From: Nitrospirota bacterium
GTDB lineage: Bacteria; Nitrospirota; Nitrospiria; JACQCE01
Reading direction: 5' to 3'
Length of the DNA: 53,616 bases
Assembly (NCBI GenBank): GCA_016201765.1
Contig: JACQCE010000048.1
Span: 1 to 53,616, forward strand
A program made the position numbers and the translations under genes. Shown in pieces: positions 25,566 to 46,235 of this stretch (position 1 is the stretch's first letter; every line of letters starts with the position of its first letter). Below the pieces are notes generated by a model. That model saw only the letters and a list, made by a program, of their open reading frames with translations. It did not search any database and was not told where the DNA came from.

Positions 25566-25575
25566 TGGTGTGCAT

Positions 25576-27047: not shown

Positions 27048-27082
27048 TTGACGGATTGGCCGACCTCGGCTATCTTTACCAT
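27048..27082 (+). promoter_or_regulatory. Sigma70-type promoter for major pilin
   Basis: TTGACG-N17-TATCTT followed by TACCA; strong SD AGGGAGGA before ATG 27179. Confidence 0.7.
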
Positions 27083-27178
27083 TTGGCGGCTGCGAATGCG
27101 GCCACGGCACGGCGCAACACAACCAACGATCTCGCGTCGCGGACGATCCTCGCGGGGCGGAAAGGGAGGAGCAGAATC

Positions 27179-27700: not shown

Positions 27701-27770
27701 CTTGTTGAAGGAGAAATGGCCGGAGAGTGAGATGGCCGGCTGTGTTTGACAGCAGTGGCGATTGACCGTG

Positions 27771-29588
27771 ATGCGGCAACGGGCCGGAGATTGGCTCATA
27801 TATGTGATCGTGGCTGTCCCGTTCCTTGCCGCGGCGTTTGACACGGGCGTTCAGAGCCTGCTCTTTACCACGCTGACCGCGTGGGGGACGCTGGCGCTTC
27901 TCCTGATCGTTGGTGTGCGCCCCGCAACGGGGGATCCCCCCGTTGCGGGGCGCCTGTTTGATCTGCCGTTGTTCGGTCTGCTCCTGGTCGGCGGCGTGTC
28001 CGCCGTCTGGTGGACGGTTGATCGGGGCAGTAGTGATCTGGGGCTGATCAAACTGGCCAATTTCGTCCTTCTCGCACTCCTGCTGCCCCGGTTGCTGCCC
28101 TCGGTATCCGCCTATCGGCCGTTGTTGTTCTGGGTGGCCCTGCTGGCCGGCGGGCTGGCGCTCTATGGTTTTCTTCAGTGGCCGTTGGGATTGAATCAGA
28201 TGGGAGGCCGTCTGCACTCGTTCTTTCTGATTCCCAACAGCCTGGCCGGCTTTCTGGCGGCGGCCCTGCCGGTGACGGCGGCATTGCTGCTTACGGCGAA
28301 ATCCCGCCCGGCCCATGCGTGGTGGCTGGTGCTGGCGATTCTGCAGGCGGCGGCATTGGCGGCCACCGGTTCGCGGGGCGGCTGGCTGGCTGGCGCCGCG
28401 GGGATGCTGTGCGCGCTGGCGCTCGTGGGATGGAGGCGGGTGATGGGACGAACGCTCCTGATCGGCGCGGTGGTGTTGGCCCTGTCCGTCACGGTAATTG
28501 ACCGGTTGCATCCGGAGTTGATCAGGCCGCGCGCGGCCACGTTGACCCATCTACTCAATGCCGAGCCGCACCGCTATCTCATCTGGCAGAGCGCCGTTGA
28601 GATGATCCGGGAACGACCGCTGACGGGGTGGGGCATCGGCACGTTTGGTCTGGCCTACGTGCGGTTTAAATCGCCGGCGTTTGACGGTGTGACGCAGTAC
28701 TATGCCCACAATGATTACCTTCAACTCGCCGCGGAAATGGGGCTGCCCGGGCTGGCCTGTTTCCTCTGGCTGGCCGGTGCGGCCGGCTGGATGGTCTGGC
28801 GTGTGCGGCGCGTCCGTCAAGGAAAGGCGGACGATGTGGCGGAGGCGAAGCAGGCCTCCGGTGACGCCGCAATTCTCCTGGCCGGCGTGGCGGGCGGCGG
28901 AGCCGCGATTCTGCTGCATAGCGCGGTTGACTTCGATCTCTATGTCCCGGCCATTTTGTTCGTGCTGGCGATCTATCTCGGCTATCTGCGCTCGTCCTGG
29001 CGCGAGGTGTGCGGCCGACATTCCACCGATTCGCCATCCCCATGGGCGGCTTCAGCCTCGGCGGCGGCCCTGTGGACGAAGACGCGCCCGTTGGCCGCGG
29101 TGATCGTGTCCGTGCTGCTGGCGCTGTTGGTCGGCCGGCTCTATCTGGCGGACAGGGCCGGTTTGGCCGGGCAGGAGTCAATGGCCCGGAACCGTTATGA
29201 AGAGGCGATCGGCCGTTTTGCCGTGGCGACGGTATGGAACCCGCGCCAGGCCTCCTATTACGAGAACCTGGGGCTCGCCTATGAGCATTGGGCCAATCAG
29301 AGTCGTCGCCAGGATCTGCTGCAAACGGCGGAAATGGCCTTCCGGATGGCGACCCAATTGAGCCCTGCCGATTATCGATACTACTGGAATTTGGGGCGGT
29401 TTTATAAAAATTATGCCGCATTTTCATCGAGTTTTGCGGCGTACGACCCCTGGAGCGCCTACAGACAGGCGGCTGAGCTCTATCCGACAAAAACCGCCAT
29501 TCTCAAGGAGCTGGATTCGCTCGGCCCCCCCTCCCACTCCCCCCCAATCCCGTTAATCCGGGAGAAAACCACCCTCCGTTCCGCTTGA
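27771..29588 (+). CDS. O-antigen ligase/Wzy_C-family protein with C-terminal TPR, probable pilin O-oligosaccharyltransferase
   Basis: ~12 TM helices, PNSLAG, TGSRGG, PLTGWGIGTF, AHNDYLQLAAEMGLPG, HSAVDFD; immediately after the pilin. Confidence 0.85.
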   Translation: MRQRAGDWLIYVIVAVPFLAAAFDTGVQSLLFTTLTAWGTLALLLIVGVRPATGDPPVAGRLFDLPLFGLLLVGGVSAVWWTVDRGSSDLGLIKLANFVLLALLLPRLLPSVSAYRPLLFWVALLAGGLALYGFLQWPLGLNQMGGRLHSFFLIPNSLAGFLAAALPVTAALLLTAKSRPAHAWWLVLAILQAAALAATGSRGGWLAGAAGMLCALALVGWRRVMGRTLLIGAVVLALSVTVIDRLHPELIRPRAATLTHLLNAEPHRYLIWQSAVEMIRERPLTGWGIGTFGLAYVRFKSPAFDGVTQYYAHNDYLQLAAEMGLPGLACFLWLAGAAGWMVWRVRRVRQGKADDVAEAKQASGDAAILLAGVAGGGAAILLHSAVDFDLYVPAILFVLAIYLGYLRSSWREVCGRHSTDSPSPWAASASAAALWTKTRPLAAVIVSVLLALLVGRLYLADRAGLAGQESMARNRYEEAIGRFAVATVWNPRQASYYENLGLAYEHWANQSRRQDLLQTAEMAFRMATQLSPADYRYYWNLGRFYKNYAAFSSSFAAYDPWSAYRQAAELYPTKTAILKELDSLGPPSHSPPIPLIREKTTLRSA

Positions 29589-29622
29589 CGGCCGGGGAAA
29601 ATCTGCTACCGTTAACAATAGG
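29585..29622 (+). promoter_or_regulatory. Sigma70-type promoter for riboswitch/minor pilin operon
   Basis: TTGACG-N16-TACCGT with extended TG, followed by TAACAATAGG; ends ~10 nt before the aptamer. Confidence 0.55.
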
Positions 29623-29632
29623 TTTTCACGTC

Positions 29633-29728
29633 TGCCACCGATAAGAGCGATCCCCTTGAAAAGGGGGAATTCGCAAAGCGACACGCCTACGGCCCTCACG
29701 GCACGGCGATGTGGTTGCCGAAGTGGCA
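29633..29728 (+). ncRNA. GEMM-I (cyclic-di-GMP-I family) riboswitch, A20/C92 variant (cGAMP-type)
   Basis: P1 TGCCAC/GTGGCA; GC-GA-TCCCCTT-GAAA-AGGGGGA-ATT-CGC-AAAGC P2 and junction; GCCTACGGCC..GGCACGGC receptor-like P3; 3' GGTTGCCGAA. Aligns by eye with Vc2 and Geobacter GEMM-I aptamers. Confidence 0.8.
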
Positions 29729-29826
29729 CACCAGGGAGTCCGCAAATGTTGCGGCTCCGCGACCAGTCACCCTGTGATTGGACACGGAAGACGGCCGGAG
29801 ACGGCGTCTTGCGAACGGTGTGCGGC

Positions 29827-30513
29827 ATGGAGCAGCCAGCGCCTCAAAGACACAGAGCACTCGTGCACCCATTCCTGTCCGGCCGCGCCAGTGGTGCGCG
29901 TTCCGGCCAGGCAGGCTTCACGCTGATCGAGCTGGTGATCATCATCGTCATTATCGGCATTCTGGCTATTGTCGCTATTCCTCGCTTCAATTACAGCGGT
30001 CCGCAGGTGTCGGCGACGTCCAGAAAATTGATCGGGGACCTTCGATACGCGCAGGCACGCGCCGTCGCCACGCAGGTCCCGCACGGCGTGACCTTCGCCG
30101 CCTGCGCCGGGGGCGCGGCTGGTTGCACCCAATATCGGCTCTTTTTCAACTGCGCCGGAATTCAGAATAACTCCAATTGCGCCCCGGCCGAACTGGCCGC
30201 GTTCACCGGATTCGCTGTGACGGCGGATCCCCTTGGACAATATTATCTGGAGAAAGATCCATTGAGCGGTCAGGATTTCTCCATGCAGATGATCGGCCCC
30301 CATGACGGGGTGCTGCTCGATACGACGCTGGCGGAGCAGACCATTCAATTCAACGCGACGGGCAGGCCCTGCGGGGGGTGGGGCGCCGGTTGTGTCGCGC
30401 TGGCGCTGCTCCCGTCGCCGACCAATACCATCGATGTCCACAAGGATATGGCGTGCGAGCAGATGTCGGTCACGGTGGCCACGGGGCTGGTGGATTGGCG
30501 GGACCAATGTTGA
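29827..30513 (+). CDS. Minor pilin (MshC/FimT/GspH-like)
   Basis: QAG/FTLIELVIIIVIIGILAIVAIPRF, DLRYAQARAV, IQFNATGRP; Cys-rich. Confidence 0.85.
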   Translation: MEQPAPQRHRALVHPFLSGRASGARSGQAGFTLIELVIIIVIIGILAIVAIPRFNYSGPQVSATSRKLIGDLRYAQARAVATQVPHGVTFAACAGGAAGCTQYRLFFNCAGIQNNSNCAPAELAAFTGFAVTADPLGQYYLEKDPLSGQDFSMQMIGPHDGVLLDTTLAEQTIQFNATGRPCGGWGAGCVALALLPSPTNTIDVHKDMACEQMSVTVATGLVDWRDQC

Positions 30514-31175
30514 TGAGGGCGGTCGCCACGGCGTCCGCGAGCCGCAGGGGGCGGACGGGACCTTTCCTCCGCAATCAACGGGGCGTGACGCTGGTCGAGC
30601 TGGTGATTCTGCTGGTGATCGCCGCCATCGCGCTTCCCACGCTGATGATCTATTTCATCCAAACGATGAATCACACCGCCGAGGCGCAGATGGGCACGGT
30701 GGGCTTGGGGCTGGCGCAGGAATTGATGGAGGAGGTCAGGGCGAAGCGCTGGGACGAGAATGTCCCGATTCCCAACGGCGTTCCAACGGGCGCGAATGCG
30801 CTCGGCCCCGAGGCAGGTGAAAGCCGCTGCGACCCGGCGGCGCCGATGTGCACTTCCTATGACGATATCGACGATTACAATTTCCCTGATGCGGCGCCCA
30901 ACAGCGGGATTACTGATCCGCACGGAAATCCTTTGCCGGCCTACGCGGGGTACCTGTACCGGGTGAAGGTCTGCTACGTCAATGGGCCGCAATCCGTCGG
31001 CGACGGGGGCGACAATGCGAATGGGGGCGCCTGTGTGGCGGGCGCCACCGACTACAAAAAAATCACGGTCACGGTGATGTGGGGCGAGTGCGCGGACAGC
31101 GCGTCTCCCCGATGCGGGCGGATGCAACTGGACACGGTCATGGCCAACTACCATCTCGATCAATCGTCATCATGA
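30513..31175 (+). CDS. Minor pilin (MshD/PilV-like)
   Basis: QRG/VTLVELV, AQELMEEVRAKRWDEN, LGPEAGESR, YDDIDDYN, YKKITVTV; TGATG coupling. Confidence 0.85.
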   Translation: MRAVATASASRRGRTGPFLRNQRGVTLVELVILLVIAAIALPTLMIYFIQTMNHTAEAQMGTVGLGLAQELMEEVRAKRWDENVPIPNGVPTGANALGPEAGESRCDPAAPMCTSYDDIDDYNFPDAAPNSGITDPHGNPLPAYAGYLYRVKVCYVNGPQSVGDGGDNANGGACVAGATDYKKITVTVMWGECADSASPRCGRMQLDTVMANYHLDQSSS

Positions 31176-32131
31176 ACAGGCGAATAATCATCAACCGCCG
31201 CGGCATCACGCTGCTGGAGATCATCCTGGTGATGGTGATCATGGGCATCCTGGCCGGGATTATTGTGGTGCCGGTGATCACGGGGGCGAAAGCCTGGAGC
31301 GACATGACCCGCCAGAATGAGGTTTCGCAACAGGCCCGGATCGGACTGGACCGGTTTGTGCGCGAGGCGCGCGCGATTCGGCGGGTCAACGGGCGGCCGT
31401 CGCTCATGGTGAACTGGACCGAAGGCGTCACGCCGGTGGCGATCGGGCCGAACCGGATCCGGTTTATCACATCGAGCGGCGAGGACCTGGAGTACAGCTG
31501 GGCGGGCGCGGGGCAGCCGTTGATCCGCACCGACTGGACGACCGGCGTCGCCGTGACCGACCCCGCCGCCATAAACGTGCAAAATTTCTCCCTGGCCTAT
31601 TATGAAGATTCCAACGCGTCGATCGTCCAGATGCGCCAGGAGGCCGAGGACGCGCCGGTGGCGTGCACCCCCGATGTCTGCGCCGACACCGTGCAGGGCG
31701 CCGATGTCGTGCTGGCGGTCAACGGCGCGACCCTGGCCTACCAGTTCACCGGCACGCGGATTGCCTGGATCGGCCCGAAGGATGTCGGCCTCGGGACGGC
31801 GGAGGTCTGGATTTCCGATACCGTTCCGGACGTCATCGCCAATCCCGCCACCACGGACCCGGCGACCGCGATCGTCGTTCAAAACTCGAGTGCGGCCACT
31901 CCCGCCACGGCGCTCTTTGTCAGCGGCCCGCTGCCCTACGGTGCGCACTGGATTGCCATCGCCTGTCGAAGCCCGCTGAATGCCGATTGTTCGGTAACGC
32001 CGGTCAAGGCGGATGCGTTGGATTTGCTGGTCAACCGCGTGGTGGTCGACCTGACGGTCGGGGAGGGGGCGTGCAACGCCAACCTGTGCACCACCCTGCG
32101 CGACCAGATCTCATTCCGGTCCGTGCAATGA
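31172..32131 (+). CDS. Minor pilin (MshO/PilW-like) with inserted jelly-roll-like segment
   Basis: RRG/ITLLEIILVMVIMGIL, ARIGLDRFVREAR; ATGA overlap. Confidence 0.82.
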   Translation: MNRRIIINRRGITLLEIILVMVIMGILAGIIVVPVITGAKAWSDMTRQNEVSQQARIGLDRFVREARAIRRVNGRPSLMVNWTEGVTPVAIGPNRIRFITSSGEDLEYSWAGAGQPLIRTDWTTGVAVTDPAAINVQNFSLAYYEDSNASIVQMRQEAEDAPVACTPDVCADTVQGADVVLAVNGATLAYQFTGTRIAWIGPKDVGLGTAEVWISDTVPDVIANPATTDPATAIVVQNSSAATPATALFVSGPLPYGAHWIAIACRSPLNADCSVTPVKADALDLLVNRVVVDLTVGEGACNANLCTTLRDQISFRSVQ

Positions 32132-33537
32132 TCAGGGCAATGATCAAGACGAGGATGACGACGAACCGACTCTCACAGGAGCGTGGCATCTCGGTGATAT
32201 TCGTGGTGATCGCCATGCTGCTCCTTGCGCTGCTCGGCAGCGTCATGGTCTCCGTCATGATCAGCGGGCGCTTCGCGGGGGTCGACCAGATGCAGGCGGC
32301 GTCGGCCCAGTATCTGGCGGAGGCCGGCCTGGACCGGGCGCTGCACTATTTTTTCGACGAGCAGCAGAGCTGCACCACCGATCCGAACGTCTTTCATGTG
32401 GCGCTGGGCAACGGCCATTACACCGTGGCGACGGAGTCGTTCGCCCCCGCGGCGCTCGCGTTGGACGCGGCGATCACCGCGGAGGATGAAAGCTTCACGG
32501 TCAATTTGAACGGGGCGGCCGACCTGAAGGCCGCCGGCTACGCCAACCCCTACGGCATCGTGGTGATCGGGTCGGAGATCATCGAATGCGCGCAGGTGGC
32601 CGGCAACACGTTTTCATTGTGCAAGCGGGGTGTGGGGGGATCGACGGCGACCGCCCACGCCGCCACGACGAGCAAGGTCCTCCAGGATTTTTGCATTGTC
32701 AATGCGATCGGCACCGCCACCGCCGCGCAGGCCGGCAACGCCCAGCGGGTGGTCTCAATCGGTTTTTCCCAATTTGATCGCGGTTGGGCCGTCGGCGATC
32801 AGGGCACGATGCTCCAATGGAGCGGCGTCGCATGGGAGCCGGTGGACTCGATGACCGGCCGGACTCTTCGGGTGGTCAAGCTGACCTCGCTCGGCGGCGG
32901 CTGGGCCATGGGCGATTCGGGCGTGATGGGGCAGTGGGACGGCACCGCGTGGCAGAAACGGCGATCGGCCTACATGTACTTCTCCGCCAACGGCGGCGAA
33001 GCGATTGGGCTGCTCGACACCGATCCGCATGAAGTCGGTCAAACGGCCCGGGTGCTCTCCCTCCCGATTCCAGGAGGCGGAGTCAGGGAGATGGCAACCA
33101 TGCCGAATGGGAAATATCTCTATGTGACGCGGGGCGCCGGCCACAACGATGTGGTGGTGATCGATCCGAGCGCCTGCCGGGCCGGTGATCTGCCGGACCG
33201 GCCCCGGCCCAGGCGCCTGCGGGACGACGGAGACCGCTCCGGCGAACGACTACGTGGAGGCCACGTTCACTCTGACCGATACGGCGAATCCCGCCAATTG
33301 CCCGAATCCCGTGCCGCGGTACATTGGCTTGAACTGGAACGGGAGCAAGGCCTTTGTCACCACCGGATCATCCGGCTGTGTGAAGTCGGTCACCCTGACC
33401 AGCGGATTTTCCCCCCCCAACCCGACCGTCGTCGGCATCAATACGGGCGATGCCGATCTCTGGGGCATCGCCATTCACCCCGGCGGCTCTTACGCCTACG
33501 TCGCCGGCCGGGCGACCAAGAAGGTGTATCTGATTGA
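32128..33537 (+). CDS. PilX/MshP-like pilin-fused adhesin, N-terminal part (reading frame lost near 33175-33190)
   Basis: ERG/ISVIFVVIAM (no E5), AQYLAEAGL, GWAVGDQG propeller repeats; translation turns into Arg/Pro-rich junk after IDPSACR. Confidence 0.75.
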   Translation: MIRAMIKTRMTTNRLSQERGISVIFVVIAMLLLALLGSVMVSVMISGRFAGVDQMQAASAQYLAEAGLDRALHYFFDEQQSCTTDPNVFHVALGNGHYTVATESFAPAALALDAAITAEDESFTVNLNGAADLKAAGYANPYGIVVIGSEIIECAQVAGNTFSLCKRGVGGSTATAHAATTSKVLQDFCIVNAIGTATAAQAGNAQRVVSIGFSQFDRGWAVGDQGTMLQWSGVAWEPVDSMTGRTLRVVKLTSLGGGWAMGDSGVMGQWDGTAWQKRRSAYMYFSANGGEAIGLLDTDPHEVGQTARVLSLPIPGGGVREMATMPNGKYLYVTRGAGHNDVVVIDPSACRAGDLPDRPRPRRLRDDGDRSGERLRGGHVHSDRYGESRQLPESRAAVHWLELEREQGLCHHRIIRLCEVGHPDQRIFPPQPDRRRHQYGRCRSLGHRHSPRRLLRLRRRPGDQEGVSD

Positions 33538-36283
33538 TTTGGGGAGCGATCAAAAGGTTGATGCCGTTCCCATCGTCGGAGGCACGCCGTGGCACGTGGG
33601 GTATACGCGGGACGGCGCGGAAGCCTATGTGAGCAAAAACGGCACGACGAAACTCCTCTCGATCAACACGTCGGGCAATACGGCCGGCCCGGAAGTGGAC
33701 CTGTCCGACGACGGGCCGACGGGCGTGGCGTTGAGCCCCGACGGGAGTGAAATGTACGTCACCAATGTGACGGCCGGACGGGTCAACGTCGTGCGCGTCC
33801 AGGACAAGTCGCTGGGGACGGCGGCGATCATCGCCGATGGCCTGGTCGCCGACAGCGACATCGTGGCGTCGGCGGACCGGAATTTCCGCGCCCTCTCGAT
33901 GCTCGGCCCGAGCGAGGGGTGGGCGGTCGGGGAGGACGGCCGGTTGTTCCATTGGGATGGGACGAACTGGGGGATCGAGCCCCTCGCGACAATGCCCGTG
34001 GTGCCGCCCCCGGGCGTGTCCTGCTCGCCAGGCAATCCGCCGTCCACGTGTGACAACGGCGACGGGACGTGGACGTCCCAGATCGAACCCGTGCAGGACG
34101 TCTATGCGCGGCTCAATGACAGCGTTCAGAATGACGGCACCCTCTGCACGCCGCCGCAGATTCTGGGGTGTACCAACGGCATCAATTACCATTCGGGAAC
34201 GTTCCTCAACCCCAACCTCTACGAGACCGGCAATGAAATCGATCGATTGGGGCTTCGCCGGGTGCGTGAAGCGCCGAATGACGCCGACCCCAGCAACAAT
34301 GCCAGCCCCAATGCCGAGGGCGATCTGACCGAGACGATCATCACGCCCAATCCGAACAAAAAACTCTTCCGGCCGTATCTGCAATTTGATCTAGGTGTGG
34401 TCAAACAATATGCGCTGTCGGTGTCAACTGCGATTCTGCAGCTCCGGGCCTACAAGGCCGAGGTGCGTCCCTCCGACACCCCGGAATTCGGCACAACCGG
34501 ATTGTTCCTGGAATATCAAAATACCAGCGATTGCATTCTGGTCTCAGGCCAATGCGTACCGCCGGCCGTTAACGATTCATCGGGCAACGGCAATTCGGGG
34601 ACGAATTACGGAGGCACCATTGAGACGACCACGGGCGGCATTGATGGACCGGCCCTTTCCTTCGATGGCAATAATGACCGGGTGATCCTGCCTTCCACGA
34701 ATGCGCTGCAGGGCATTGCCAGCGGTGTGACGGTCTCGGTGTGGGTCAATTTTACCTCGGCATCCGAACTGACCGCCGCAAGCCAGGAGCTGATCCGCAA
34801 GGGCATCAACGACGATCGGCTCAGTTTTGTGCTGCGGCTTGTCAATGGCCGGCCGGCTTTCAAGGTGCGGGTCAGTTGCGGGCTGTTGTGCTGGGTGCCG
34901 AAGGAGGCATTATCCGACGGTCCCCCGCTGCAGCTTAATCACTGGTATATGCTCAGCGGCACGTATGACGGGCAACACCTCCGGGTGTATCAAGACGGCG
35001 GCGATCCCCTCAAGGAAGTGGATGCTTCGGGAGCTCTGTTTCCTGGAAGTGCTGCAGTGTCACCAGGTCCGCCCACTCGCAAATGCGGCGGTCATACCGG
35101 CGGCCCCACCGGCATTTCCTCCGATAGCCTCTGTATCGGAGGCACCAACACAACTAGTCCTCTCGGCACGGGGAACAGTTTTGCCGGCCTGATGGATGGA
35201 ATCCGTATTTACGATACGGGTTTGTCACAGACTGACAACAACGCCTTGGCTGGCCTTGGCGACCGCTACGTTGATATCTACCGAGTGACCTCTTCCTGGC
35301 CTGTTGCCACACTGAGCGGCGCGACGCAGCCGCAAAGCTGGGGTGTTGACCAGACGAACAGTTTTGCGAAAACGATCATCAGGCAGAAGGAGATCACCGA
35401 TCCCCTCAATGTGCCGCCGGGACAGAGGTATGAATGGGATGTGACGCGGCTGGCGCAGGGGTGGGTGGATGATACCTATCATAACTATGGTCTGGTCTTG
35501 AGGATGGGACTTGATCCGAGCACGGGGGCGACGGACCCCAGTTCCAGCGGTACAGTCTGGTTCTATTCGGCCCACGCCCCGTCGCCGTACACCGGCTACC
35601 GCCCCAGGTTGACCGTCAAATACCGAGTCAGCCGCCGTCCGAATCTGGCGTCGGTGGCGATGGTCGATACCAACGGCGACAAGGTTGCCGACGATGGCTG
35701 GGCCGTCGGCCAGGGGGGGGTCATTTTTCGCTACAACAGCGGCCCCAAGACCTGGTCGTTGTGGACGCAGCTCGCCAACGGCGCGCCGACCCTCCCGACG
35801 AAGGGGTTGAACTCGGTGTCGATGCGCAGCGCCACGGAGGGGTGGGTGGTCGGCGAGGAGGGGGTGATCTACCATTTCACCGGCACGCTGGCCGGAGGCG
35901 TGGTCACCGGCTCATGGGCGAAGGATCCCTTGTCGGAAGCGGTCACCTCCTCCAATGTAAACGCCGTCTCCATCGCGCCCAACGGCGACGGCATCGCCGT
36001 CGGGGACGACGGCGTCATCCTCATGTATGATCATCTTGCCGGTTCGTGGGCGGTGGATGGCACCTCGCCCGCTCGCCTGTTGGCCGTGAAAGCTTTTTCG
36101 AAGGCCAAGGCGTGGGGCGTCGGCGAGGAGGCCACGATTATCCGGAAACGCGCCGGGAGCTGGCTGGCCACCGATGCGGAGAACGGCACAGAGGCGCCGA
36201 GTGCGACCGGCAACACCCATTTGCGCGGGATTGATATGCTGCCGGAGCAGACCACGGTGAGCGACTGGCGCGAGAACTACTGA
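33185..36283 (+). CDS. Multidomain adhesin, C-terminal part (YVTN-like propeller, DNRLRE-like, LamG, GWAVG propeller); probably one gene with 32128
   Basis: GVALSPDGSEMYVTN repeats, RPYLQFDL..WDVTRLAQGW..NYGLVL..RPRLTVKY, DSSGNGNSGT..LSFDGNND..GLMDGIRIYD, GWAVG repeats, terminal WRE; no signal peptide. Confidence 0.8.
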   Translation: MICRTGPGPGACGTTETAPANDYVEATFTLTDTANPANCPNPVPRYIGLNWNGSKAFVTTGSSGCVKSVTLTSGFSPPNPTVVGINTGDADLWGIAIHPGGSYAYVAGRATKKVYLIDLGSDQKVDAVPIVGGTPWHVGYTRDGAEAYVSKNGTTKLLSINTSGNTAGPEVDLSDDGPTGVALSPDGSEMYVTNVTAGRVNVVRVQDKSLGTAAIIADGLVADSDIVASADRNFRALSMLGPSEGWAVGEDGRLFHWDGTNWGIEPLATMPVVPPPGVSCSPGNPPSTCDNGDGTWTSQIEPVQDVYARLNDSVQNDGTLCTPPQILGCTNGINYHSGTFLNPNLYETGNEIDRLGLRRVREAPNDADPSNNASPNAEGDLTETIITPNPNKKLFRPYLQFDLGVVKQYALSVSTAILQLRAYKAEVRPSDTPEFGTTGLFLEYQNTSDCILVSGQCVPPAVNDSSGNGNSGTNYGGTIETTTGGIDGPALSFDGNNDRVILPSTNALQGIASGVTVSVWVNFTSASELTAASQELIRKGINDDRLSFVLRLVNGRPAFKVRVSCGLLCWVPKEALSDGPPLQLNHWYMLSGTYDGQHLRVYQDGGDPLKEVDASGALFPGSAAVSPGPPTRKCGGHTGGPTGISSDSLCIGGTNTTSPLGTGNSFAGLMDGIRIYDTGLSQTDNNALAGLGDRYVDIYRVTSSWPVATLSGATQPQSWGVDQTNSFAKTIIRQKEITDPLNVPPGQRYEWDVTRLAQGWVDDTYHNYGLVLRMGLDPSTGATDPSSSGTVWFYSAHAPSPYTGYRPRLTVKYRVSRRPNLASVAMVDTNGDKVADDGWAVGQGGVIFRYNSGPKTWSLWTQLANGAPTLPTKGLNSVSMRSATEGWVVGEEGVIYHFTGTLAGGVVTGSWAKDPLSEAVTSSNVNAVSIAPNGDGIAVGDDGVILMYDHLAGSWAVDGTSPARLLAVKAFSKAKAWGVGEEATIIRKRAGSWLATDAENGTEAPSATGNTHLRGIDMLPEQTTVSDWRENY

Positions 36284-36427: not shown

Positions 36428-37522
36428 GTGCGCGACTGCCTGCCGTGCGCAGGGTCGGCCGGAAGGGTTGCAGTGGGCTGGTTGAGCCCGCCCCTGATCG
36501 GTCTCGACGTCGGCCATGGCTCCATCAAAGCTGTCAGCCTGACCGGCCGCCGTCGCGGCTCCCTCCTCTTTGCCGGTCTGGTCGAGTTGCCACCGCCCGG
36601 ATCAACGATGACAGGGCCGCGGATGAGCGCCGGCCTCTCCTCATTGGGCGAGGAGTACCAACTGGCCCGTCAACCGGCGGCGGTCTGCTTCACGGAGCGG
36701 GCGTTGCTGATCACCTATCTGACGATGCCCGCGATTCCGGATCAGGAGTTGGTCGAGGCGTTGCGATGGGAGGCGAAAAAACATTTCTCCTGCGCCATCG
36801 ACGAGCTGGTGATCGACTACCTGGTGGTCGGCAGGGAGGGGGGCGCGGAGGGCAACACGGTGGAGGTGGTCCTCGTGGCGGGGGAACGGGCCGCGCTCAT
36901 GGCCGATCTGGAGCCGCTCAAGCAGGCGGGATTGAAGATCGTGGCGATCGACGCGACGCCGCTGGCGTGGGTGGCGGCGATTCAACGGCGGGCGCCGGAG
37001 TTGCTGGAGGGCAACGTGGCGTTGGTGGACCTGGGAGCCGGGAAAATCGACATCAATGTGGTGCGAAACGGCGCCCTGCGGATGACGCGCCGGGTGGCGG
37101 GCGGCGGACAGGGCATCACCGACGCCATCGCGCGGGAGCTGGGCGTGTCCGCCTCGTCCGCGGAGTTGCTGAAGCGGCAGATCGGTCTGGAAAATCCCCG
37201 GCAGGCGCTGGAGCAGGCGCGCGCCGACAAGTTTGCGGAGGTGATCAAGCAGGAGGTGAACCGGTTGATTCTGGAGGTGCAGCGGTCGATCGAATTTTAC
37301 CGCGTGGAGCATCGACAGAGCGCGCTGCAGCGGCTGCTGCTGGGCGGGGGCACCGCGCTCCTGCGCGGGTTGAGCGGGTACATGTCCGGCTATTTTGAAG
37401 CGCCGATCGAATTGGACGATCCGTTCGCCGAGTTCCATGTTGAGAAGGCGGGGTTCGATGTGGTGCGGGCCCAGGCGCCCCGCTTTACGGCCGCCATGGG
37501 CCTGGCACAGTGGGAGGCGTGA
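36428..37522 (+). CDS. pilM: Type IV pilus assembly protein PilM (start uncertain)
   Basis: IGLDVGHGSIKAV, ALVDLGAG, GGQGITDAI, AELLKR, LGGGTALLRGL, AMGLA actin-like motifs. Confidence 0.9.
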   Translation: MRDCLPCAGSAGRVAVGWLSPPLIGLDVGHGSIKAVSLTGRRRGSLLFAGLVELPPPGSTMTGPRMSAGLSSLGEEYQLARQPAAVCFTERALLITYLTMPAIPDQELVEALRWEAKKHFSCAIDELVIDYLVVGREGGAEGNTVEVVLVAGERAALMADLEPLKQAGLKIVAIDATPLAWVAAIQRRAPELLEGNVALVDLGAGKIDINVVRNGALRMTRRVAGGGQGITDAIARELGVSASSAELLKRQIGLENPRQALEQARADKFAEVIKQEVNRLILEVQRSIEFYRVEHRQSALQRLLLGGGTALLRGLSGYMSGYFEAPIELDDPFAEFHVEKAGFDVVRAQAPRFTAAMGLAQWEA

Positions 37523-38130
37523 TGGCCCGCCGGTCCAAGCAGCGGATCAATCTCTACCGGCCGGTCCTGGGAACCGGCACCATCGCCGCGCCCAAGCGTT
37601 CCCTGGTAATCGGGTCGATGGCGCTCCTGATCGTGTCGATCGCGGTCGTGGCGGCGCTGGACCTGAAGAAACGGTGGGAACTGGGACGGGCCATTGCCGC
37701 CCAACAGGCGGAACGCGATCAGGTCAAAGCGCAGATTGCCACGTTGTCGGATCGGCTGACGCTGCTGACCAGCGGGATGAATGCGCAGGTGACCACCGCG
37801 TCGGCCGAGCTGTTGCCCCTGATCAACCAGCGCACCAAGTGGACTGAGTTGTTTCAGGATATGAGCCTGCGGGTGCCGGAGGGCGTCTGGCTGCTCAAGA
37901 TGGATGTGGAGACGCTGAACATCCCCGTCGGCAGGGGAAAGACCAAGTTGGCCGACAAGAAGAGCATCACGCTCTCCGGGTTTGCCAGATCGTTTCTGGG
38001 GCTGGGGCAGTTGTTGATGGCCCTGGAACAGTCGCCGAAATTTACGTCGGTGACGTTGAAATCCGCCAAGCGCAAAACCGACAAGCTGGGCGAACAGGTC
38101 GATTTTGAAATTGCCGGGGTGTTGCTGTGA
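37522..38130 (+). CDS. pilN: PilN-family protein
   Basis: QRINLY PilM-binding motif, TM, VPEGVWL, LSGFA, LEQSPKF. Confidence 0.88.
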   Translation: MARRSKQRINLYRPVLGTGTIAAPKRSLVIGSMALLIVSIAVVAALDLKKRWELGRAIAAQQAERDQVKAQIATLSDRLTLLTSGMNAQVTTASAELLPLINQRTKWTELFQDMSLRVPEGVWLLKMDVETLNIPVGRGKTKLADKKSITLSGFARSFLGLGQLLMALEQSPKFTSVTLKSAKRKTDKLGEQVDFEIAGVLL

Positions 38131-38200
38131 AGGACTTGACGGATTGTGGTGATCGTCCGATGACGCGTGGCGCAACCGACGGGGAGCGGAAAAGGGTCTG

Positions 38201-38779
38201 ATGGGAAAACTGTTCGCCCTGCTGCAAAAACTGTCGCCGCGCGAACAATTCATCGCGTGGGCGGTCATCGCCGCGCTCGTCGTCTCCGGCGGCGTGATGC
38301 TGCATGATGCGCAGCAGAAGAAGTTGCTTGCGCTGAAGGGCCAGCTGGATGCCGTGAAAAATGAGATCGGCGGCCTGAAGAGCGAGGTGCTGCTCAGGCA
38401 GAAAGAGGTGGATCAGGCTGCGGCACAGCAGGTTGAGGCGAAAACGCGGGCCACGCTGGTCGCGCAAACGCAGCAGCAGTTGTCGCAGGGGGGGCGGGTG
38501 TCGGAGCTGGTTTCCGAGTTGATGCGTACGGCCAAGGAGGGGGGGGTCGACGTGCTATCGATCAAACCCGGCGAGCAGCGGGATCAAGGCAGCTATGTGG
38601 AATTGCCGGTGACCATGGAACTGCGGGCCCGGTTCCGCAGTCTGGGGGAATATCTGCAGCAGGTGCAACACCTCCAGCAGGTGGTGCTGGTGGGCCGGGT
38701 TCGTGTGGAGCCGTCAACGGTGGAAGGCGCGGTGTTGACCGTGGAGGTGGGCACGGTGAGTTTCCTGGGGAAGGTGTGA
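38201..38779 (+). CDS. pilO: PilO/MshJ-family protein
   Basis: LSPRE before TM, coiled coil, YVELPVTMEL, LGEYLQQV. Confidence 0.8.
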   Translation: MGKLFALLQKLSPREQFIAWAVIAALVVSGGVMLHDAQQKKLLALKGQLDAVKNEIGGLKSEVLLRQKEVDQAAAQQVEAKTRATLVAQTQQQLSQGGRVSELVSELMRTAKEGGVDVLSIKPGEQRDQGSYVELPVTMELRARFRSLGEYLQQVQHLQQVVLVGRVRVEPSTVEGAVLTVEVGTVSFLGKV

Positions 38780-39198
38780 TGGAGACGCGGTCGGTCATCG
38801 TGATCGGTGTGATCGTGTGGGCGGTGTGGGTGGCGCCGGCCTCTTCTGCTGATGCAACCGGCGCTTCCGAAACGGCAAGCCGTGCGCGACTGTCGGCGGG
38901 GCTGTCCGAGATCAATCTTCAGGCGTTGGAACAGTTGGAGGCGCCCCGATGGGGGAGGGATCCGTTTGCGCAACCCACCAAGGAGGAGGTCATGGCGGGG
39001 ACGCTGTCGCTGACGGCCATCCTCTATCACCAGTCATCCGCGGTGGCCGTGTTGAACGGTCAAGTGGTGCGGGTCGGCGATGAGGTGGATGGGCGGCAGG
39101 TGGTGGCGATTGACCGCGATCATGTGATGGTGCGCGAAGGCAAAGTCCTCCGGCGGCTGGATGTCCCGCGGTTCACCGTCCAAAAGAGGAAACCGTAG
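38776..39198 (+). CDS. MshK/PilP-like protein
   Basis: Signal/TM, RDPF, LTAIL..AVLNGQVVRVGDEVDG..VVAI. Confidence 0.7.
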   Translation: MMETRSVIVIGVIVWAVWVAPASSADATGASETASRARLSAGLSEINLQALEQLEAPRWGRDPFAQPTKEEVMAGTLSLTAILYHQSSAVAVLNGQVVRVGDEVDGRQVVAIDRDHVMVREGKVLRRLDVPRFTVQKRKP

Positions 39199-40560
39199 AT
39201 GCGCAAGGCGCGAGACTGGCGGGGCCGTGCGATGATCTGCGTGCTGGCGGCGATGGCGGTGTGGGGAGGGCCGTCCGGAATGGGGGCGGCGGTCGCCGCG
39301 CCGCCGGCGCTGCGTTTTTCAATGGAATTCAGGGACGCCGATGTGAAGGATGTGCTCAGAGCCCTTGGACAGGAAAACAAGCTGAATGTGGTATTCGGCG
39401 ATGACGTCCAGGGCAAGGTGACGTTGAGCTTTCGCGATGTCACGCTGCAGGAGGCGCTGGAGGCGATTCTCCAGATCCAGAACCTGAGCAGCATGCAGGA
39501 GGGCAACATCCTCCGGATCGTCCGTTCGCCGTTTGCGGCGGGTGAAGACCAGCTGGTCACCGCCATCGTTCCGGTGCAATTCGCGGACGCGGATGAACTG
39601 TCCCAGTCGGTCAGGCAGTTGTTGAGCTCCAGGGGAAAATTGACCATCGACAAGCGGACCAATGCGTTGCTGATCAGGGATGTGCAGGAAAACATCCGGC
39701 GCATTCGGGGCGTGGTGGGAAAATTGGATGAACGGACGCCCCAGGTCCTGATTGAGGCAAAAATTGTCGAGGCGGACACAAGTTTCTCCCGTCAGATCGG
39801 GATCCAATGGGGGGCCAATGGCATCTCGCGCAACGGAGCGGGGACGTTTGGCCTCGGGGGCACCGCGGCCACGGGAGGGGTGGGCGCGGCGGGCAGCAAT
39901 TTTCTGGTGAATTTGCCGGCCAGCGTCGGTCCGGGTTCCGGCGGCGCGATCGGATTCTCATTTGCCAACATTTCCGACACCTTCGCGCTTGATCTCCAGT
40001 TGACGGCGCTTGAAAATACGGGTCGCGGCAAGATTTTATCGAGCCCAAAAATTCTGACCCAAAACAATAAGGAAGCCAAGATTTCCACCGGCCTGACCAT
40101 TCCGGTGCTGACCTCGACGGTGGTCGCCTCGGGCGTGGCCGGGCCGGGCGGCGCGGAGGGGAGCCAGGCGACGACGGGCGTGCAAAATATCGACGTCAAT
40201 CTGGCCCTGACGGTCACCCCGCATGTGACGCCCGGTGATCAGATTAATCTGAAAATTCATGCGGAGAAAAAGGACGCCGATTTCGCGCAGCAGGTGCAGG
40301 GCATCCCGACATTGACGACGCGCGAGGCGTCGACGGAAATGATCGCCCGCGACGGCGAAACGGTGGTGATCGGCGGAATTTACAAAAAAACGGAAAGCAA
40401 GCAACGCACCGGCCTGCCGTTCCTGTCCAGCATTCCCGTGGTGGGCTGGCTGTTTAAAAACGAAAAAACATCTGATGATTTGTCCGAGCTGCTGATCTTT
40501 GTGACCCCGCATCTCTATCGTAATCGTGATCAGTCGGCCTCGTCCCGTTCCGCCCCTTGA
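39199..40560 (+). CDS. pilQ: Secretin (PilQ-like, short, no AMIN domains)
   Basis: SMEFRDADVKDVL, DKRTNALLI, QVLIEAKIVE, ILSSPKILT, DGETVVIGGI, PFLSSIPVVGWLFK, ELLIFVTP. Confidence 0.9.
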   Translation: MRKARDWRGRAMICVLAAMAVWGGPSGMGAAVAAPPALRFSMEFRDADVKDVLRALGQENKLNVVFGDDVQGKVTLSFRDVTLQEALEAILQIQNLSSMQEGNILRIVRSPFAAGEDQLVTAIVPVQFADADELSQSVRQLLSSRGKLTIDKRTNALLIRDVQENIRRIRGVVGKLDERTPQVLIEAKIVEADTSFSRQIGIQWGANGISRNGAGTFGLGGTAATGGVGAAGSNFLVNLPASVGPGSGGAIGFSFANISDTFALDLQLTALENTGRGKILSSPKILTQNNKEAKISTGLTIPVLTSTVVASGVAGPGGAEGSQATTGVQNIDVNLALTVTPHVTPGDQINLKIHAEKKDADFAQQVQGIPTLTTREASTEMIARDGETVVIGGIYKKTESKQRTGLPFLSSIPVVGWLFKNEKTSDDLSELLIFVTPHLYRNRDQSASSRSAP

Positions 40561-45046: not shown

Positions 45047-45062
45047 GGCGGACCGGCGGATC

Positions 45063-46235
45063 ATGGGGGCGAGACACACGACCAAAAAATCCGGAGGGCA
45101 CACGCCGAATCATCCGAAGGCGGCGCCCGCGTCGGACAGGCTCCAGGCGCTGATCACGGAGAATCGCGAGCTCAAAACGGGGCTCCGTTACCGGACCAAG
45201 GAGCTCAGTTTCTTCCTGAGCCTGGCCAAGGCGCTGACCTCGACCCTGGAACTCAAGAAGGTGCTCAAGGTCATCATGGCCCGCGCGCAGCAGTTGATCA
45301 AGGCCGAGGCCTGGGCGCTGCTGCTGGTGGATGAGCCGGCCAACGAACTCTATTTCGACCTGATCCACTCCAAGCACGAAAAGGCCCTCAAATCGCAGCG
45401 CATCAAACCGGGCCAGGGCCCGGCGGGATGGGTCGTCCGGTACAACAAGCCGCTCCTGGTGCCCGATCTTGCCAAGGACGGCCGGTTTTCCAGCGGCCTC
45501 GACCTGCAACTTGGTTCGCCGTCACGATCGTTGATCGGCGTGCCGATCGTGAACAAGAAACGGACGATCGGCGTCCTGGAGGCCGTCAATAAAACGGGTG
45601 ACGGGCCGTTTGACGAACAGGATCTGGCGCTCCTGGTGAAGCTGGTCGATCAGGCCGAGATCGCCATCGAGCGCGCCTATCTGTATCAGAAGATGGCCGA
45701 CCTCGCGGTCACCGATGATCTGACGAAGCTCTTCAATTTCCGGTATCTCGACCAGACGCTCGACATCGAACTCCGCCGGGGACAGCGCTACGGCGCGAAT
45801 GTGTCGTTGATCTTCCTGGACATGGATTACTTCAAGCAGGTCAACGACCGGTACGGCCATCTGATGGGCAGCCGCGTGCTGATCGAGGTGGCGCAGATCC
45901 TGATCCAGAATCTGCGCGACGTCGACATCATCGCCCGGTACGGCGGGGATGAGTTTGTGGTGGTCCTGCCCGAGACGCCCCTCGATGTCACCTACCGGAT
46001 CGCCCAACGGCTTCGCGTGGCATTGCGCGAGCACATGTTCCTCGAGGCGGAGGGCCATCCGGTCAAACTCACGGCCAGCTACGGGATCGCGAGTTACCCG
46101 ACGCACGCGCGCAATAAGAAGGATCTGATCCGTCTGGCCGATCAGGCGATGTACCGGGCGAAGAACAGCGGCCGTGACCAGATCTGCCTGGCTGAACATC
46201 CGGCGACCAAGCCGTCCCCCTCCGCGGCGGGCTAG
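45063..46235 (+). CDS. GAF-GGDEF dinucleotide cyclase with Hypr (cGAMP synthase) signature
   Basis: GAF domain; DDLTKLFNFRY, DMDYFKQVNDRYGHLMGS (Ser replacing the conserved Asp), RDVD I-site, RYGGDEF, ADQAMYRAK. Confidence 0.9.
   Translation: MGARHTTKKSGGHTPNHPKAAPASDRLQALITENRELKTGLRYRTKELSFFLSLAKALTSTLELKKVLKVIMARAQQLIKAEAWALLLVDEPANELYFDLIHSKHEKALKSQRIKPGQGPAGWVVRYNKPLLVPDLAKDGRFSSGLDLQLGSPSRSLIGVPIVNKKRTIGVLEAVNKTGDGPFDEQDLALLVKLVDQAEIAIERAYLYQKMADLAVTDDLTKLFNFRYLDQTLDIELRRGQRYGANVSLIFLDMDYFKQVNDRYGHLMGSRVLIEVAQILIQNLRDVDIIARYGGDEFVVVLPETPLDVTYRIAQRLRVALREHMFLEAEGHPVKLTASYGIASYPTHARNKKDLIRLADQAMYRAKNSGRDQICLAEHPATKPSPSAAG

What the first reader, a model, noticed from the sequence alone, without database searches (positions are those of the whole stretch)
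29633..29758. Hidden GEMM-I riboswitch with the cGAMP-type A20 heading the minor-pilin/adhesin operon
Seen: GAAA-capped P2, CGC-AAAGC junction, receptor-like P3 and closing GTTGCCGAA. The base just 5' of the P2-closing GC (Vc2 position 20) is A (29646) and position 92 is C (29718). A GGAG-CCGCAA/TTGCGG-CTCC hairpin without a U-tract follows. Known: G20 aptamers bind c-di-GMP, and A20 variants from Geobacter prefer 3',3'-cGAMP. Caveat: the P2 internal loop (GA/ATT instead of AAA/GA) and the P3 bulge (GA not AG) deviate, so this may be a structural variant. The ORF track hides it inside the spurious 5' extension of 29656..30513.
Basis: partly seen in the sequence, partly recalled or inferred. 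Interest (0 to 1): 0.88.

Follow-up and report, generated by a model that had tools for sequence, protein, structure and literature searches.

The report
cGAMP-type riboswitch before minor-pilin genes
A real GEMM-I riboswitch of the known Geobacter-like, cGAMP-sensing subtype sits in the leader of a type IV pilus minor-pilin operon; the standard database threshold misses it, but it is a new example of a known kind, not a new kind.

Summary
Window 29634-29728 (+) is a full-length GEMM-I aptamer. Rfam's c-di-GMP-I model aligns end to end but scores only 29.1 bits against a cut-off of 35, so the default scan reports nothing. A model built from 27 aptamers of the same bacterial family, without this one, scores it 53 bits (rough E 8e-13). 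The base at the Vc2-G20 position is A (29646) and the ligand-pairing C is 29718. Of the 28 aptamers compared in this family, 21 carry A and 7 carry G at that position. One of the genome's 13 GGDEF domains has the Hypr (cGAMP-synthase) signature, and it lies in this same window at 45066-46235. The element follows a conserved promoter and precedes three prepilin-type genes, two large proteins and pilMNO/pilQ. Two wetland metagenomes hold the same arrangement. A sister genus keeps only a truncated remnant of the 5' part. No intrinsic terminator follows. Instead, the aptamer's 3' half can pair with the start-codon region, which suggests a translational ON switch; this is inferred, not shown. Ligand preference is untested. 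cGAMP riboswitches, including one before pilM in Geobacter, have been known since 2015.

The parts
29585..29612 (+). Inferred promoter: TTGACG (29585-29590), a 16-nt spacer, then TGc-TACCGT (-10 at 29607-29612). The stop codon of the upstream Wzy_C/TPR gene (29586-29588) lies inside the -35 box.
   Evidence: Read. The same TTGACG-16-TGcTATCTT is found at the orthologous junction in G004. The strict consensus scan does not call it, so this is an inference from conservation.
29633..29728 (+). GEMM-I aptamer. P1 is 29633-29638 paired with 29723-29728. P2 is 29647-29650/29671-29674 plus 29651-29657/29662-29668, with the GAAA loop at 29658-29661. J2/3 is AAA at 29675-29677. P3 is 29677-29716, with receptor-like CCUACG (29685-29690) and CACGG (29702-29706).
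   Evidence: Rfam hit at 29.1 bits; family-specific model at 53.0 bits; the aptamer-only minimum-energy fold (-41.0 kcal/mol) reproduces P1, P2 and P3.
29646..29646 (+). A at the position of Vc2 G20 (A14 of Gs1761). This base pairs with the first base of the ligand and is the mark of the cGAMP-binding GEMM-Ib subtype.
   Evidence: Alignment columns (posterior '*'). The meaning of the position is taken from PMC6140456 and PMC5888326 (passages).
29718..29718 (+). C at the position of Vc2 C92, which forms a Watson-Crick pair with the G of the ligand.
   Evidence: GCCGAA at 29717-29722 aligns to the model's gCCgaa.
29735..29813 (+). Three spacer hairpins. H1 is 29735-29758, H2 is 29763-29781 and H3 is 29785-29813. 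None is followed by a U tract.
   Evidence: Folds. The terminator scan finds none on the + strand in 29300-30100.
29705..29732 (+). 5' arm of the alternative helix. It comprises the 3' strand of P3, the C92-equivalent, the 3' strand of P1 and 4 more bases.
   Evidence: The unconstrained fold of 29620-29870 pairs it with 29817-29843 (22 pairs).
29817..29843 (+). 3' arm of the alternative helix. This is the translation initiation region: a GGUG Shine-Dalgarno-like element at 29817-29820, the AUG at 29827-29829 and the first codons.
   Evidence: duplex -37.8 kcal/mol against shuffles at -25.9, sd 3.6.
29827..30513 (+). First minor pilin (GspH/FimU-like prepilin, G|FTLIE). The likely start is the ATG at 29827; the GTG at 29863 is the alternative.
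   Evidence: Pfam N_methyl at residues 25-50; NCBIfam GspH-like N-terminus, below cut-off; ortholog alignment at 54% identity.
30378..36283 (+). Rest of the cluster. It holds two further prepilin-type genes (ORFs 30378-31175, weakly PilV-like, and 31079-32131), a 624-aa ORF without a family (31663-33537), and a 1032-aa protein with LamG-like, DNRLRE and beta-propeller-like parts (33185-36283). The ORF starts are over-extended.
36428..40560 (+). pilM (36428-37522), pilN (37510-38130), pilO (38201-38779) and the secretin pilQ (39199-40560), downstream on the same strand.
   Evidence: Pfam. There is no terminator-like site on the + strand between 29800 and 37375.
45066..46235 (+). GAF-GGDEF protein with the Hypr signature (GHLMGS, LFNFRY, GGDEF). 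It is the candidate cGAMP synthase.
   Evidence: 1 of 13 GGDEF domains in the genome carries Ser at this position. Pfam finds GAF plus GGDEF. The best PDB hit is 6d9m_A at 166 bits, against 120 bits for PleD, with Ser and Tyr/Phe aligned.

Best explanation
Window 29633-29728 is a working GEMM-I aptamer of the A20 (GEMM-Ib) subtype, in the roughly 200-nt leader of a minor-pilin operon. The leader is transcribed from a conserved promoter at 29585-29612.

Shown: the fold and all core nucleotides are present; the element matches a model of its family's aptamers; and related populations conserve the leader better than the coding sequence behind it.

Inferred from the known family: it binds 3',3'-cGAMP through A29646 (pairing with the ligand's A) and C29718 (pairing with the ligand's G). 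The cGAMP would be made by the GAF-type Hypr GGDEF encoded 15 kb downstream.

Inferred from folding only: it acts as an ON switch without a terminator. In the free RNA, the 3' half of the aptamer (29705-29732, including C29718) pairs with the initiation region (29817-29843, which holds the GGUG element and the AUG at 29827). That breaks P1 and P3 and occludes the ribosome site. Bound ligand locks P1 and P3 and leaves the initiation region in only a weak local hairpin. cGAMP would then raise synthesis of the minor pilins that prime pilus assembly, and perhaps of the downstream tip proteins and pilMNOPQ by coupling or read-through.

My odds by step: real aptamer about 0.9; binds cGAMP about 0.7; translational ON mechanism about 0.35-0.4. 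The confidence given is for the core claim, a functional A20 GEMM-I riboswitch that responds to cGAMP and controls the minor-pilin operon.
For: - **Aptamer.** Rfam RF01051 gives a full-length alignment at 29.1 bits, E 8.2e-4 per genome. The family model R1, built without this sequence, gives 53.0 bits, rough E 8.1e-13. On the 27 training aptamers the P1/P2/P3 structure has 83.1% of cells paired, against 72.3% in shuffles (0 of 500 reach it) and 33-43% when slid.
- **A20 subtype.** 21 of 28 aptamers in G000-G004 and G006 carry A and 7 carry G. A subgroup with A20, a GAAA loop and GCAAUCC (L077, L084, L086, L089; L090, with GCACACC, is close to it) resembles the window's GCGAUCC.
- **cGAMP supply.** 1 of 13 GGDEF domains has GHxxGS plus GGDEF. 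Its nearest solved structure is the GacA-type Hypr domain. Its GAF-GGDEF architecture matches M. xanthus GacB (bioRxiv 10.1101/600031, passages).
- **Conservation.** A wetland contig (X5 record 17) spans 29397-30231. X6 records cover 29565-30162. Of the differences shared by X5 and X6, 1 falls in 29667-29885 (219 nt; A29746G in the H1 loop), together with a 5-nt insertion in the apical loop of P3. In 29886-30162 (277 nt) there are 17. Fisher p = 4e-4.
- **Platform.** The free fold is -111.0 kcal/mol and the aptamer-forced fold is -102.2. The duplex is -37.8 against shuffles at -25.9, sd 3.6; 2 of 500 shuffles and 2 of 283 genomic windows reach it. The opening energy of 29815-29832 is 16.5 kcal/mol in the free state and 10.1 in the aptamer-forced state. 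No + strand terminator is found.
- **Precedent.** Geobacter GEMM-Ib switches are ON switches. In the G. metallireducens pilM switch, the competing fold sequesters the ligand-pairing C (PMC9262584, passages). Genes downstream of GEMM-Ib fall when gacA is deleted (PMC6456294, passages).
Against: - The Rfam score is below the curated cut-off. By that alignment, P3 has three non-standard pairs and one gapped pair, and P2 has a 2-nt insertion.
A20 does not ensure selectivity: Vc2 G20A binds c-di-GMP at 53 nM and cGAMP at 120 nM, and natural bispecific A20 aptamers exist (PMC6140456).
- The element is missing at the orthologous junction of G004, and the whole minor-pilin block is missing there in G001. 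It is therefore dispensable in relatives.
- There is no covariation for this locus, because the listed variants leave both arms of the alternative helix unchanged.
- The initiation region is predicted to be largely paired in both states (paired probability 0.73 against 0.69 for -15..-1). Its opening cost stays high at 10 kcal/mol even with the aptamer formed.
- The Shine-Dalgarno-like element is weak and the start codon is not verified.
- The 8.8 kcal/mol advantage of the OFF fold exceeds what ligand binding gives at micromolar ligand. The switch would therefore need kinetic control, or tertiary energy that the folding program ignores.
- The duplex statistic (about 0.5%) is modest for a hypothesis found after looking.
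Confidence: 0.6

Rival explanations
1. The aptamer is functional but not cGAMP-selective. It responds to c-di-GMP as well (bispecific) or mainly to c-di-GMP, so pilus minor-pilin expression follows the general c-di-GMP pool.
For: The Vc2 G20A mutant binds both ligands, and natural A20 aptamers such as Cbe 1-2 are bispecific (PMC6140456, passages read). The window's P2 internal loop and P3 bulges differ from the well-studied selective Geobacter aptamers. The genome has 12 ordinary GGDEF domains.
Against: The same genome keeps two G20 aptamers alongside four A20 ones, which argues that the two kinds are used for different signals. A Hypr GGDEF is present. Tested Geobacter A20 aptamers are up to about 1200-1600-fold selective (PMC6456294 and PMC8835794, passages).
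Confidence: 0.2
2. Control is transcriptional, not translational. Ligand state decides Rho-dependent or non-canonical termination or pausing within the structured 29735-29813 segment, or the logic is OFF rather than ON.
For: All described Geobacter GEMM-Ib switches act on transcription (PMC9262584, PMC6456294). By eye, most of the other 27 family aptamers are followed by a GC-rich hairpin and a T run. The predicted accessibility of the initiation region changes little between states.
Against: No hairpin with a U tract lies on the + strand in 29300-30100. H1 coexists with the intact aptamer in the fold of 29620-29765, so it does not compete with it. The only strong competitor of P1 and P3 is the start-codon region. 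Rho dependence cannot be assessed with these tools.
Confidence: 0.25
3. The element is a decaying relic of a riboswitch that no longer regulates anything.
For: The Rfam score is sub-threshold and P3 has mismatches. A relative (G004) carries a truncated remnant of the same leader, which shows that the element can be lost. There is no canonical expression platform.
Against: All ligand-contacting and junction nucleotides are intact and it scores 53 bits against the family model. The leader is far more conserved than the adjoining coding sequence in two wetland populations. The only length change is in the apical loop of P3.
Confidence: 0.07

Closest known systems
GEMM-Ib (3',3'-cGAMP / c-AMP-GMP) riboswitches of Geobacter, e.g. 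Gs1761 (pgcA) and Gm0970 (pilM)
   Same: It has the same two-hairpin GEMM-I fold, with A at the G20 position, C at the C92 position and the CGCAAAGC junction. It sits in a 5' leader, and the genome also has a Hypr GGDEF. It is associated with type IV pilus genes. The competing fold sequesters the ligand-pairing C, as described for pilM (PMC9262584).
   Different: It lies before the minor pilins (FimU/GspH-like, PilV-like), not directly before pilM. No intrinsic terminator follows; the competing strand is the start-codon region about 100 nt away, across three hairpins. P2 has a GA / AAUU-type loop and P3 has shifted bulges. The score is below Rfam's cut-off. The host is an uncultured groundwater lineage with a genome of about 2 Mb, and its candidate synthase is GAF-GGDEF, not Rec-GGDEF.
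Canonical c-di-GMP-I riboswitch (Rfam RF01051; Vc2 of Vibrio cholerae)
   Same: The architecture, the GNRA tetraloop with receptor docking, and the conserved junction and P1-proximal nucleotides are the same. The Rfam model aligns over all 87 positions.
   Different: Position 20 is A, not G. The receptor has an A-C variant (CCUACG...CACGG). The score of 29.1 is below 35 bits.
Cyclic-dinucleotide riboswitch control of type IV pilin genes in Clostridioides difficile (c-di-GMP-II upstream of pilA1; recalled, not checked in a call)
   Same: A cyclic dinucleotide switches on pilus genes through a leader RNA.
   Different: The aptamer fold (GEMM-II), the ligand and the target (the major pilin) all differ, and the mechanism there is transcriptional.

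Membership tests
GEMM-I / c-di-GMP-I (RF01051) | Covariance-model score at or above Rfam's gathering cut-off (35 bits) | tested here: not met
   The score is 29.1 bits, E 9.6e-4 locally and 8.2e-4 per genome, over the full model length. The curated threshold fails, but the E-value is significant.
GEMM-I / c-di-GMP-I (RF01051) | P1-P2-P3 architecture with the conserved junction (GC...CGCAAAGC...GCCGAA) | tested here: met
   The aptamer-only fold gives P1, P2 and P3. The junction letters are identical to the consensus. The family-specific model gives 53.0 bits.
GEMM-I / c-di-GMP-I (RF01051) | GNRA tetraloop on P2 docking into a receptor in P3 (type 1 members) | tested here: inconclusive
   The GAAA loop is present at 29658-61. 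The receptor-like CCUACG / CACGG resembles the CCUAC..CAUGG of this genome's other GAAA aptamers, L004 and L005. Docking itself cannot be tested here.
GEMM-I / c-di-GMP-I (RF01051) | Location in a 5' untranslated leader, in sense with the regulated gene | tested here: met
   It lies between a conserved promoter-like site (29585-29612) and the ATG at 29827, on the + strand like the operon.
GEMM-Ib (cGAMP subtype) | A at the Vc2-G20 position with C retained at the C92 position | tested here: met
   A29646 and C29718 occupy the aligned columns. The meaning of the positions is taken from PMC6140456 and PMC5888326.
GEMM-Ib (cGAMP subtype) | Selective binding of 3',3'-cGAMP over c-di-GMP | not testable with these tools
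   This needs in-line probing or ITC. A20 alone can give bispecific binding (PMC6140456).
GEMM-Ib (cGAMP subtype) | Host able to make 3',3'-cGAMP (Hypr GGDEF or DncV-type enzyme) | tested here: met
   Window 45066-46235 carries GHLMGS plus GGDEF plus LFNFRY; this is 1 of 13 GGDEF domains. The best PDB hit is the GacA-type domain 6d9m. Enzyme activity is not tested.
Hypr GGDEF (GacA/GacB-type GMP-AMP cyclase), for window 45066-46235 | Ser/Thr in place of the guanine-reading Asp (Ser348), a GGDEF (not GGEEF) motif, and a non-Arg cross-dimer residue (Tyr304) | tested here: met
   Ser, GGDEF and Phe sit at the aligned positions. The criteria are taken from PMC6456294 (passages).

The most novel reading that the evidence does not exclude
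This is a cGAMP riboswitch that has lost the usual terminator and works on translation. Its 3' half and the start-codon region, 100 nt apart across three hairpins, form a mutually exclusive long-range helix. It gates the minor-pilin priming complex rather than the pilMNOPQ machinery. cGAMP would then decide whether a pilus, or which pilus tip, is built, in an uncultured groundwater lineage outside the cultured Geobacter species. The truncated remnant in a sister genus would record a recent loss of the switch by a single deletion of about 155 nt.
Probability: 0.3. Interest if true: 0.5.

Novelty: new member of a known kind. Interest (0 to 1): 0.3.

Why it matters
The case shows that Rfam's gathering cut-off misses genuine GEMM-I/Ib members in uncultured lineages, and that over-extended ORF calls can hide them. 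It extends the link between cGAMP signalling and type IV pili from the pilM assembly genes to the minor-pilin and tip-protein genes. It also pairs four A20 riboswitches with a GAF-type Hypr GGDEF in a small groundwater genome. If the terminator-less, long-range platform is confirmed, it would add a translational variant to a class so far described as transcriptional. None of this changes the picture of the class.

Tried and rejected
**Searches that found nothing or only chance matches**
- The Rfam scan of the whole window at gathering threshold gave 0 hits.
- BLAST of 29590-29960 against 60 relatives matched only the pilin N-terminal codons (query 296-371). There was also one 22-nt match in G022 that lies in a coding region and is taken as chance.
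- An Rfam E-value scan of the 19 loci found that way gave no GEMM-I.
- A search with the first minor pilin in 60 relatives found only G004 with a clear ortholog. Its junction has no aptamer by Rfam.
- G001, of the same genus, has pilA-Wzy-pilM with no minor pilins and no GEMM-I in the 370-nt spacer.
- A scan of metagenome contigs with the mature pilin alignment matched 285 pattern stretches, none confirmed.
- A scan of genome contigs with a degenerate aptamer pattern gave 1 hit, inside a coding-like region of a Bacteroidetes MAG and with no Rfam match; it is taken as chance.
- A scan of metagenome contigs with a 22-nt exact string gave 0 hits.
- The own genome holds no second copy of the leader. 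Only the aptamer of L001 is weakly similar.
- No paper holds 'minor pilin', 'riboswitch' and 'cGAMP' together.

**Hypotheses set aside**
- An intrinsic terminator as the platform is rejected. There is none on the + strand, and H1 coexists with the aptamer.
- A weak second hit of my model at 36173-36252 (12.4 bits, E 0.25, P2 missing) was not accepted as a riboswitch.

**Sources I could not use**
- No RNA holder was listed among the sequencing runs, so expression and the transcript start could not be examined.
- Read laying lists only the best-supported differences (54 were not shown). Private variants of X5 and X6 in the aptamer are therefore unknown, and I could not obtain the contig sequences for a covariation test.
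- Kellenberger 2015 (PMC4418906) and Nelson 2015 (PMC4418907) are not held. What I say about them comes from later papers that cite them.
Riboswitch gene lists in the supplements of PMC6456294 and PMC8835794 might already list a Geobacter GEMM-Ib before minor-pilin genes; I could not see them.
- The taxonomy of the genome was not determined.

Full report
**1. The observation**

They are the GAAA loop at 29658-29661, CGCAAAGC at 29672-29679, GTTGCCGAA at 29714-29722, A at 29646, C at 29718, and a hairpin at 29735-29758 with no T run behind it.

The default Rfam scan of the window at gathering thresholds returns nothing. With E-value reporting on 29400-29950, RF01051 (c-di-GMP-I) aligns over all 87 model positions to 29636-29722 on the + strand. 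The score is 29.1 bits against a cut-off of 35, E 9.6e-4. In the whole 1.96-Mb assembly the same hit has E 8.2e-4 and is the sixth of six GEMM-I hits. The other five score 40.4-64.1 bits.

The stretch 29620-29765 folds to -59.4 kcal/mol, z = -2.45; 5 of 200 shuffles fold as well. This is modest on its own.

**2. An independent test of membership**

I collected the 22 GEMM-I hits at E <= 0.1 in five genomes of the same family (G001-G004 and G006) and the five other hits of the window's own genome. I aligned these 27 sequences without the window's copy (A3).

I then checked that a P1/P2/P3 structure is supported on them. 83.1% of cells are paired, against 72.3% in shuffles; 0 of 500 shuffles reach the observed value. 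Slid versions give 33-43%, and 13 of 25 pairs change on both sides. After dropping three weak distal pairs I built a covariance model (R1, 94 positions, 22 pairs).

R1 finds the window's element at 29634-29728 with 53.0 bits, rough E 8.1e-13, full length. The next hit in the window scores 12.4 bits. The element is therefore a real member of this lineage's GEMM-I population.

**3. Position 20**

Both alignments put A29646 directly 5' of the paired G29647-C29648, which is the column of Vc2 G20, and C29718 in the column of C92. In GEMM-I, G20 reads one guanine of c-di-GMP and C92 pairs with the other. In cGAMP riboswitches the G is replaced by A (A14 of Gs1761) (PMC6140456 and PMC5888326, passages read).

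Reading column 14 of A3 plus the window, 21 of 28 aptamers have A and 7 have G. In the window's own genome the split is 4 A and 2 G. A subgroup of four (L077, L084, L086, L089) combines A20, a GAAA loop, a CCUA-type receptor and GCAAUCC at the base of P2; L090 has the first three with GCACACC. This subgroup is the closest to the window's GCGAUCC.

**4. Is cGAMP made here?**

The genome has 13 GGDEF domains. In 12 of them the guanine-reading residue in GHxxG[D] is Asp. In one it is Ser (GHLMGS), combined with GGDEF rather than GGEEF. That is the Hypr signature described for GacA, where Ser348 requires GGDEF (PMC6456294, passages).

This domain lies in the window itself (ORF 44985..46235; GAF plus GGDEF by Pfam). 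Its best solved relative is 6d9m_A, an endolysin fusion of a GacA-type GGDEF domain, at 166 bits; PleD scores 120 bits. Ser aligns to Ser, and LFNFRY aligns to LFNYRY, the cross-dimer Tyr304 position. The GAF-GGDEF architecture is that of M. xanthus GacB (bioRxiv 10.1101/600031, passages). Activity is not tested.

**5. Context**

The window carries a complete type IV pilus region:
- pilB at 23663-25474
- pilC at 25570-26805
- a pilA-like gene in ORF 26885-27700
- a Wzy_C/TPR ligase-like gene at 27762-29588
- the riboswitch
- three prepilin-type genes: 29827-30513 (GspH/FimU-like), ORF 30378-31175 (weakly PilV-like) and ORF 31079-32131
- a 624-aa ORF without a family
- a 1032-aa protein with LamG-like, DNRLRE and propeller-like parts
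- pilM, pilN, pilO and the secretin

No terminator-like site lies on the + strand between 29800 and 37375. Read-through into pilM is therefore not excluded.

The TTG ORF 29656..30513 begins inside P2. The N-methylation motif and the ortholog alignment place the true start at the ATG at 29827, or less likely the GTG at 29863.

A promoter-like TTGACG-16-TGcTACCGT (29585-29612) is conserved at the same junction in G004. The strict scan does not call it. It would start the RNA about 13 nt before P1.

**6. Distribution**

G004, from a sister genus, has the orthologous pilin (54% identity overall) directly after the same ligase-like gene. Its leader is only about 80 nt long and has no GEMM-I hit.

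That short leader is nevertheless homologous to the window's leader from the transcript start through the 5' strand of P1, J1/2 and the P2 hairpin. The alignment score is 12 against 2.5, sd 1.4, for shuffles; 0 of 1000 shuffles reach it. It then runs straight into the ATG. The simplest reading is that the riboswitch was present in the common ancestor and that G004 lost about 155 nt. This is an inference.

G001, of the same genus, has pilA, the ligase-like gene, a 370-nt spacer and pilM, with no minor pilins there.

Outside the reference genomes, contigs from two wetland metagenome studies hold the arrangement. X5 record 17 spans 29397-30231, with 59 substitutions and two indels. X6 records 26-28 cover 29565-30162.

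I counted the differences shared by X5 and X6. Only one falls in 29667-29885 (219 nt): A29746G, in the loop of hairpin H1. There is also a 5-nt insertion after 29695, in the apical loop of P3. In 29886-30162 (277 nt) there are 17. Positions 29948 and 29952 were left out because many unrelated pilin contigs pile up there. Fisher p = 4e-4. Using the ATG as the boundary instead, the counts are 1 of 160 against 17 of 336, p = 0.01.

The leader is thus under stronger constraint than the protein behind it. The tool did not show 54 less-supported differences, so private changes in the aptamer remain unknown. No listed difference touches 29646.

**7. Mechanism**

No intrinsic terminator follows, and H1 coexists with the intact aptamer. 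When the leader is folded through the start codon (29620-29870), the minimum-energy structure keeps P2 but breaks P1 and P3. Positions 29705-29732 pair with 29817-29843 in 22 pairs. Among them, C29718 pairs with G29832, and GCACACC (29726-29732) pairs with the GGUGUGC that carries the Shine-Dalgarno-like GGUG, 6 nt before the AUG.

This fold is 8.8 kcal/mol better than the best fold with the aptamer enforced (-111.0 against -102.2). The duplex (-37.8 kcal/mol) is reached by 2 of 500 dinucleotide shuffles and by 2 of 283 other windows of the region. Opening 29815-29832 costs 16.5 kcal/mol in the free ensemble and 10.1 with the aptamer enforced.

This parallels the G. metallireducens pilM switch. 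There the aptamer and the competing fold are mutually exclusive, the competitor sequesters the ligand-pairing C, and cGAMP turns expression on (PMC9262584, passages). The difference is that here the competitor is the initiation region and there is no U tract.

I therefore favour a translational ON switch, at about 35-40%. The weak points are these:
- Pairing probabilities of the initiation region differ little between the two states.
- The Shine-Dalgarno-like element is weak.
- The energy gap implies kinetic control.
- There is no covariation for this helix.
- The helix was found after looking.

**8. Comparison with what is known**

GEMM-Ib riboswitches were described in 2015. [quoted passage not shown] G. 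sulfurreducens has 17 GEMM-I riboswitches, 13 of them GEMM-Ib (PMC8835794, passages).

The present element belongs to this subtype by every sequence criterion that can be tested. It differs in four respects: the target gene set (minor pilins), the platform, its peripheral loops, and its sub-threshold Rfam score. No paper in the library holds 'minor pilin', 'riboswitch' and 'cGAMP' together. The supplements that list riboswitch-gene pairs could not be opened.

**9. Verdict**

The element is a new member of a known kind. Interest is modest at 0.3. The one feature that could raise it is the terminator-less long-range platform.

Noticed in passing
L005 = G000:C94:3627-3712 (-): This G20-type GEMM-I aptamer of the same genome has T where the other 27 aligned aptamers have the ligand-pairing C (..GGCCGTCGAAG; column 109 of A3). 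A G20/U92 combination might change which dinucleotide it accepts.
   Followed up: no
window 45066-46235 (+): A GAF-GGDEF protein with the Hypr signature (Ser in GHLMGS, GGDEF, Phe at the Tyr304 position) lies directly after secA. It is the only one of the genome's 13 GGDEF domains with Ser at that position.
   Followed up: partly
L028 (G004:C99) 1428-1482: The short leader of the orthologous minor pilin in a sister genus is homologous to the first third of the window's riboswitch (5' strand of P1, J1/2 and the P2 hairpin) and then runs into the ATG. It looks like a deletion remnant of the riboswitch.
   Followed up: partly
window 36173-36252 (+): There is a weak match (12.4 bits, E 0.25) of the family aptamer model at the 3' end of the 1032-aa ORF, about 180 nt before pilM. 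P2 is missing. It may be chance, or a relic of a pilM-type riboswitch.
   Followed up: no
L001 (G000:C94:696-781, -) and its orthologs L069, L070: The loop and 5' stem of the terminator behind these A20 aptamers contain TCTTATCGGT. That is a perfect complement of the aptamer's own 5' strand ACCGATAAGA, which suggests a three-way competition in their expression platform.
   Followed up: no
L004, L005, L080, L081, L082 (G20-type aptamers), about 60-75 nt after the aptamer: These five of the seven G20-type aptamers are followed, after their terminator, by the same motif GGAGCCTCCTGA. L079 has GTGCCTCCTGA. The motif is conserved, and I did not work out what it is.
   Followed up: no
window 27762-29588 (+): A Wzy_C (O-antigen-ligase-like) protein with C-terminal TPR repeats sits between the pilA-like gene and the minor pilins. 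G001 and G004 have it in the same place. It may be a pilin glycosylation enzyme.
   Followed up: no
G001:C40 (L048) 3300-3669: In the same-genus genome, the ligase-like gene is followed directly by pilM after a 370-nt spacer with a good TTGACA-type promoter. The whole 6.5-kb minor-pilin block is absent from that locus.
   Followed up: partly
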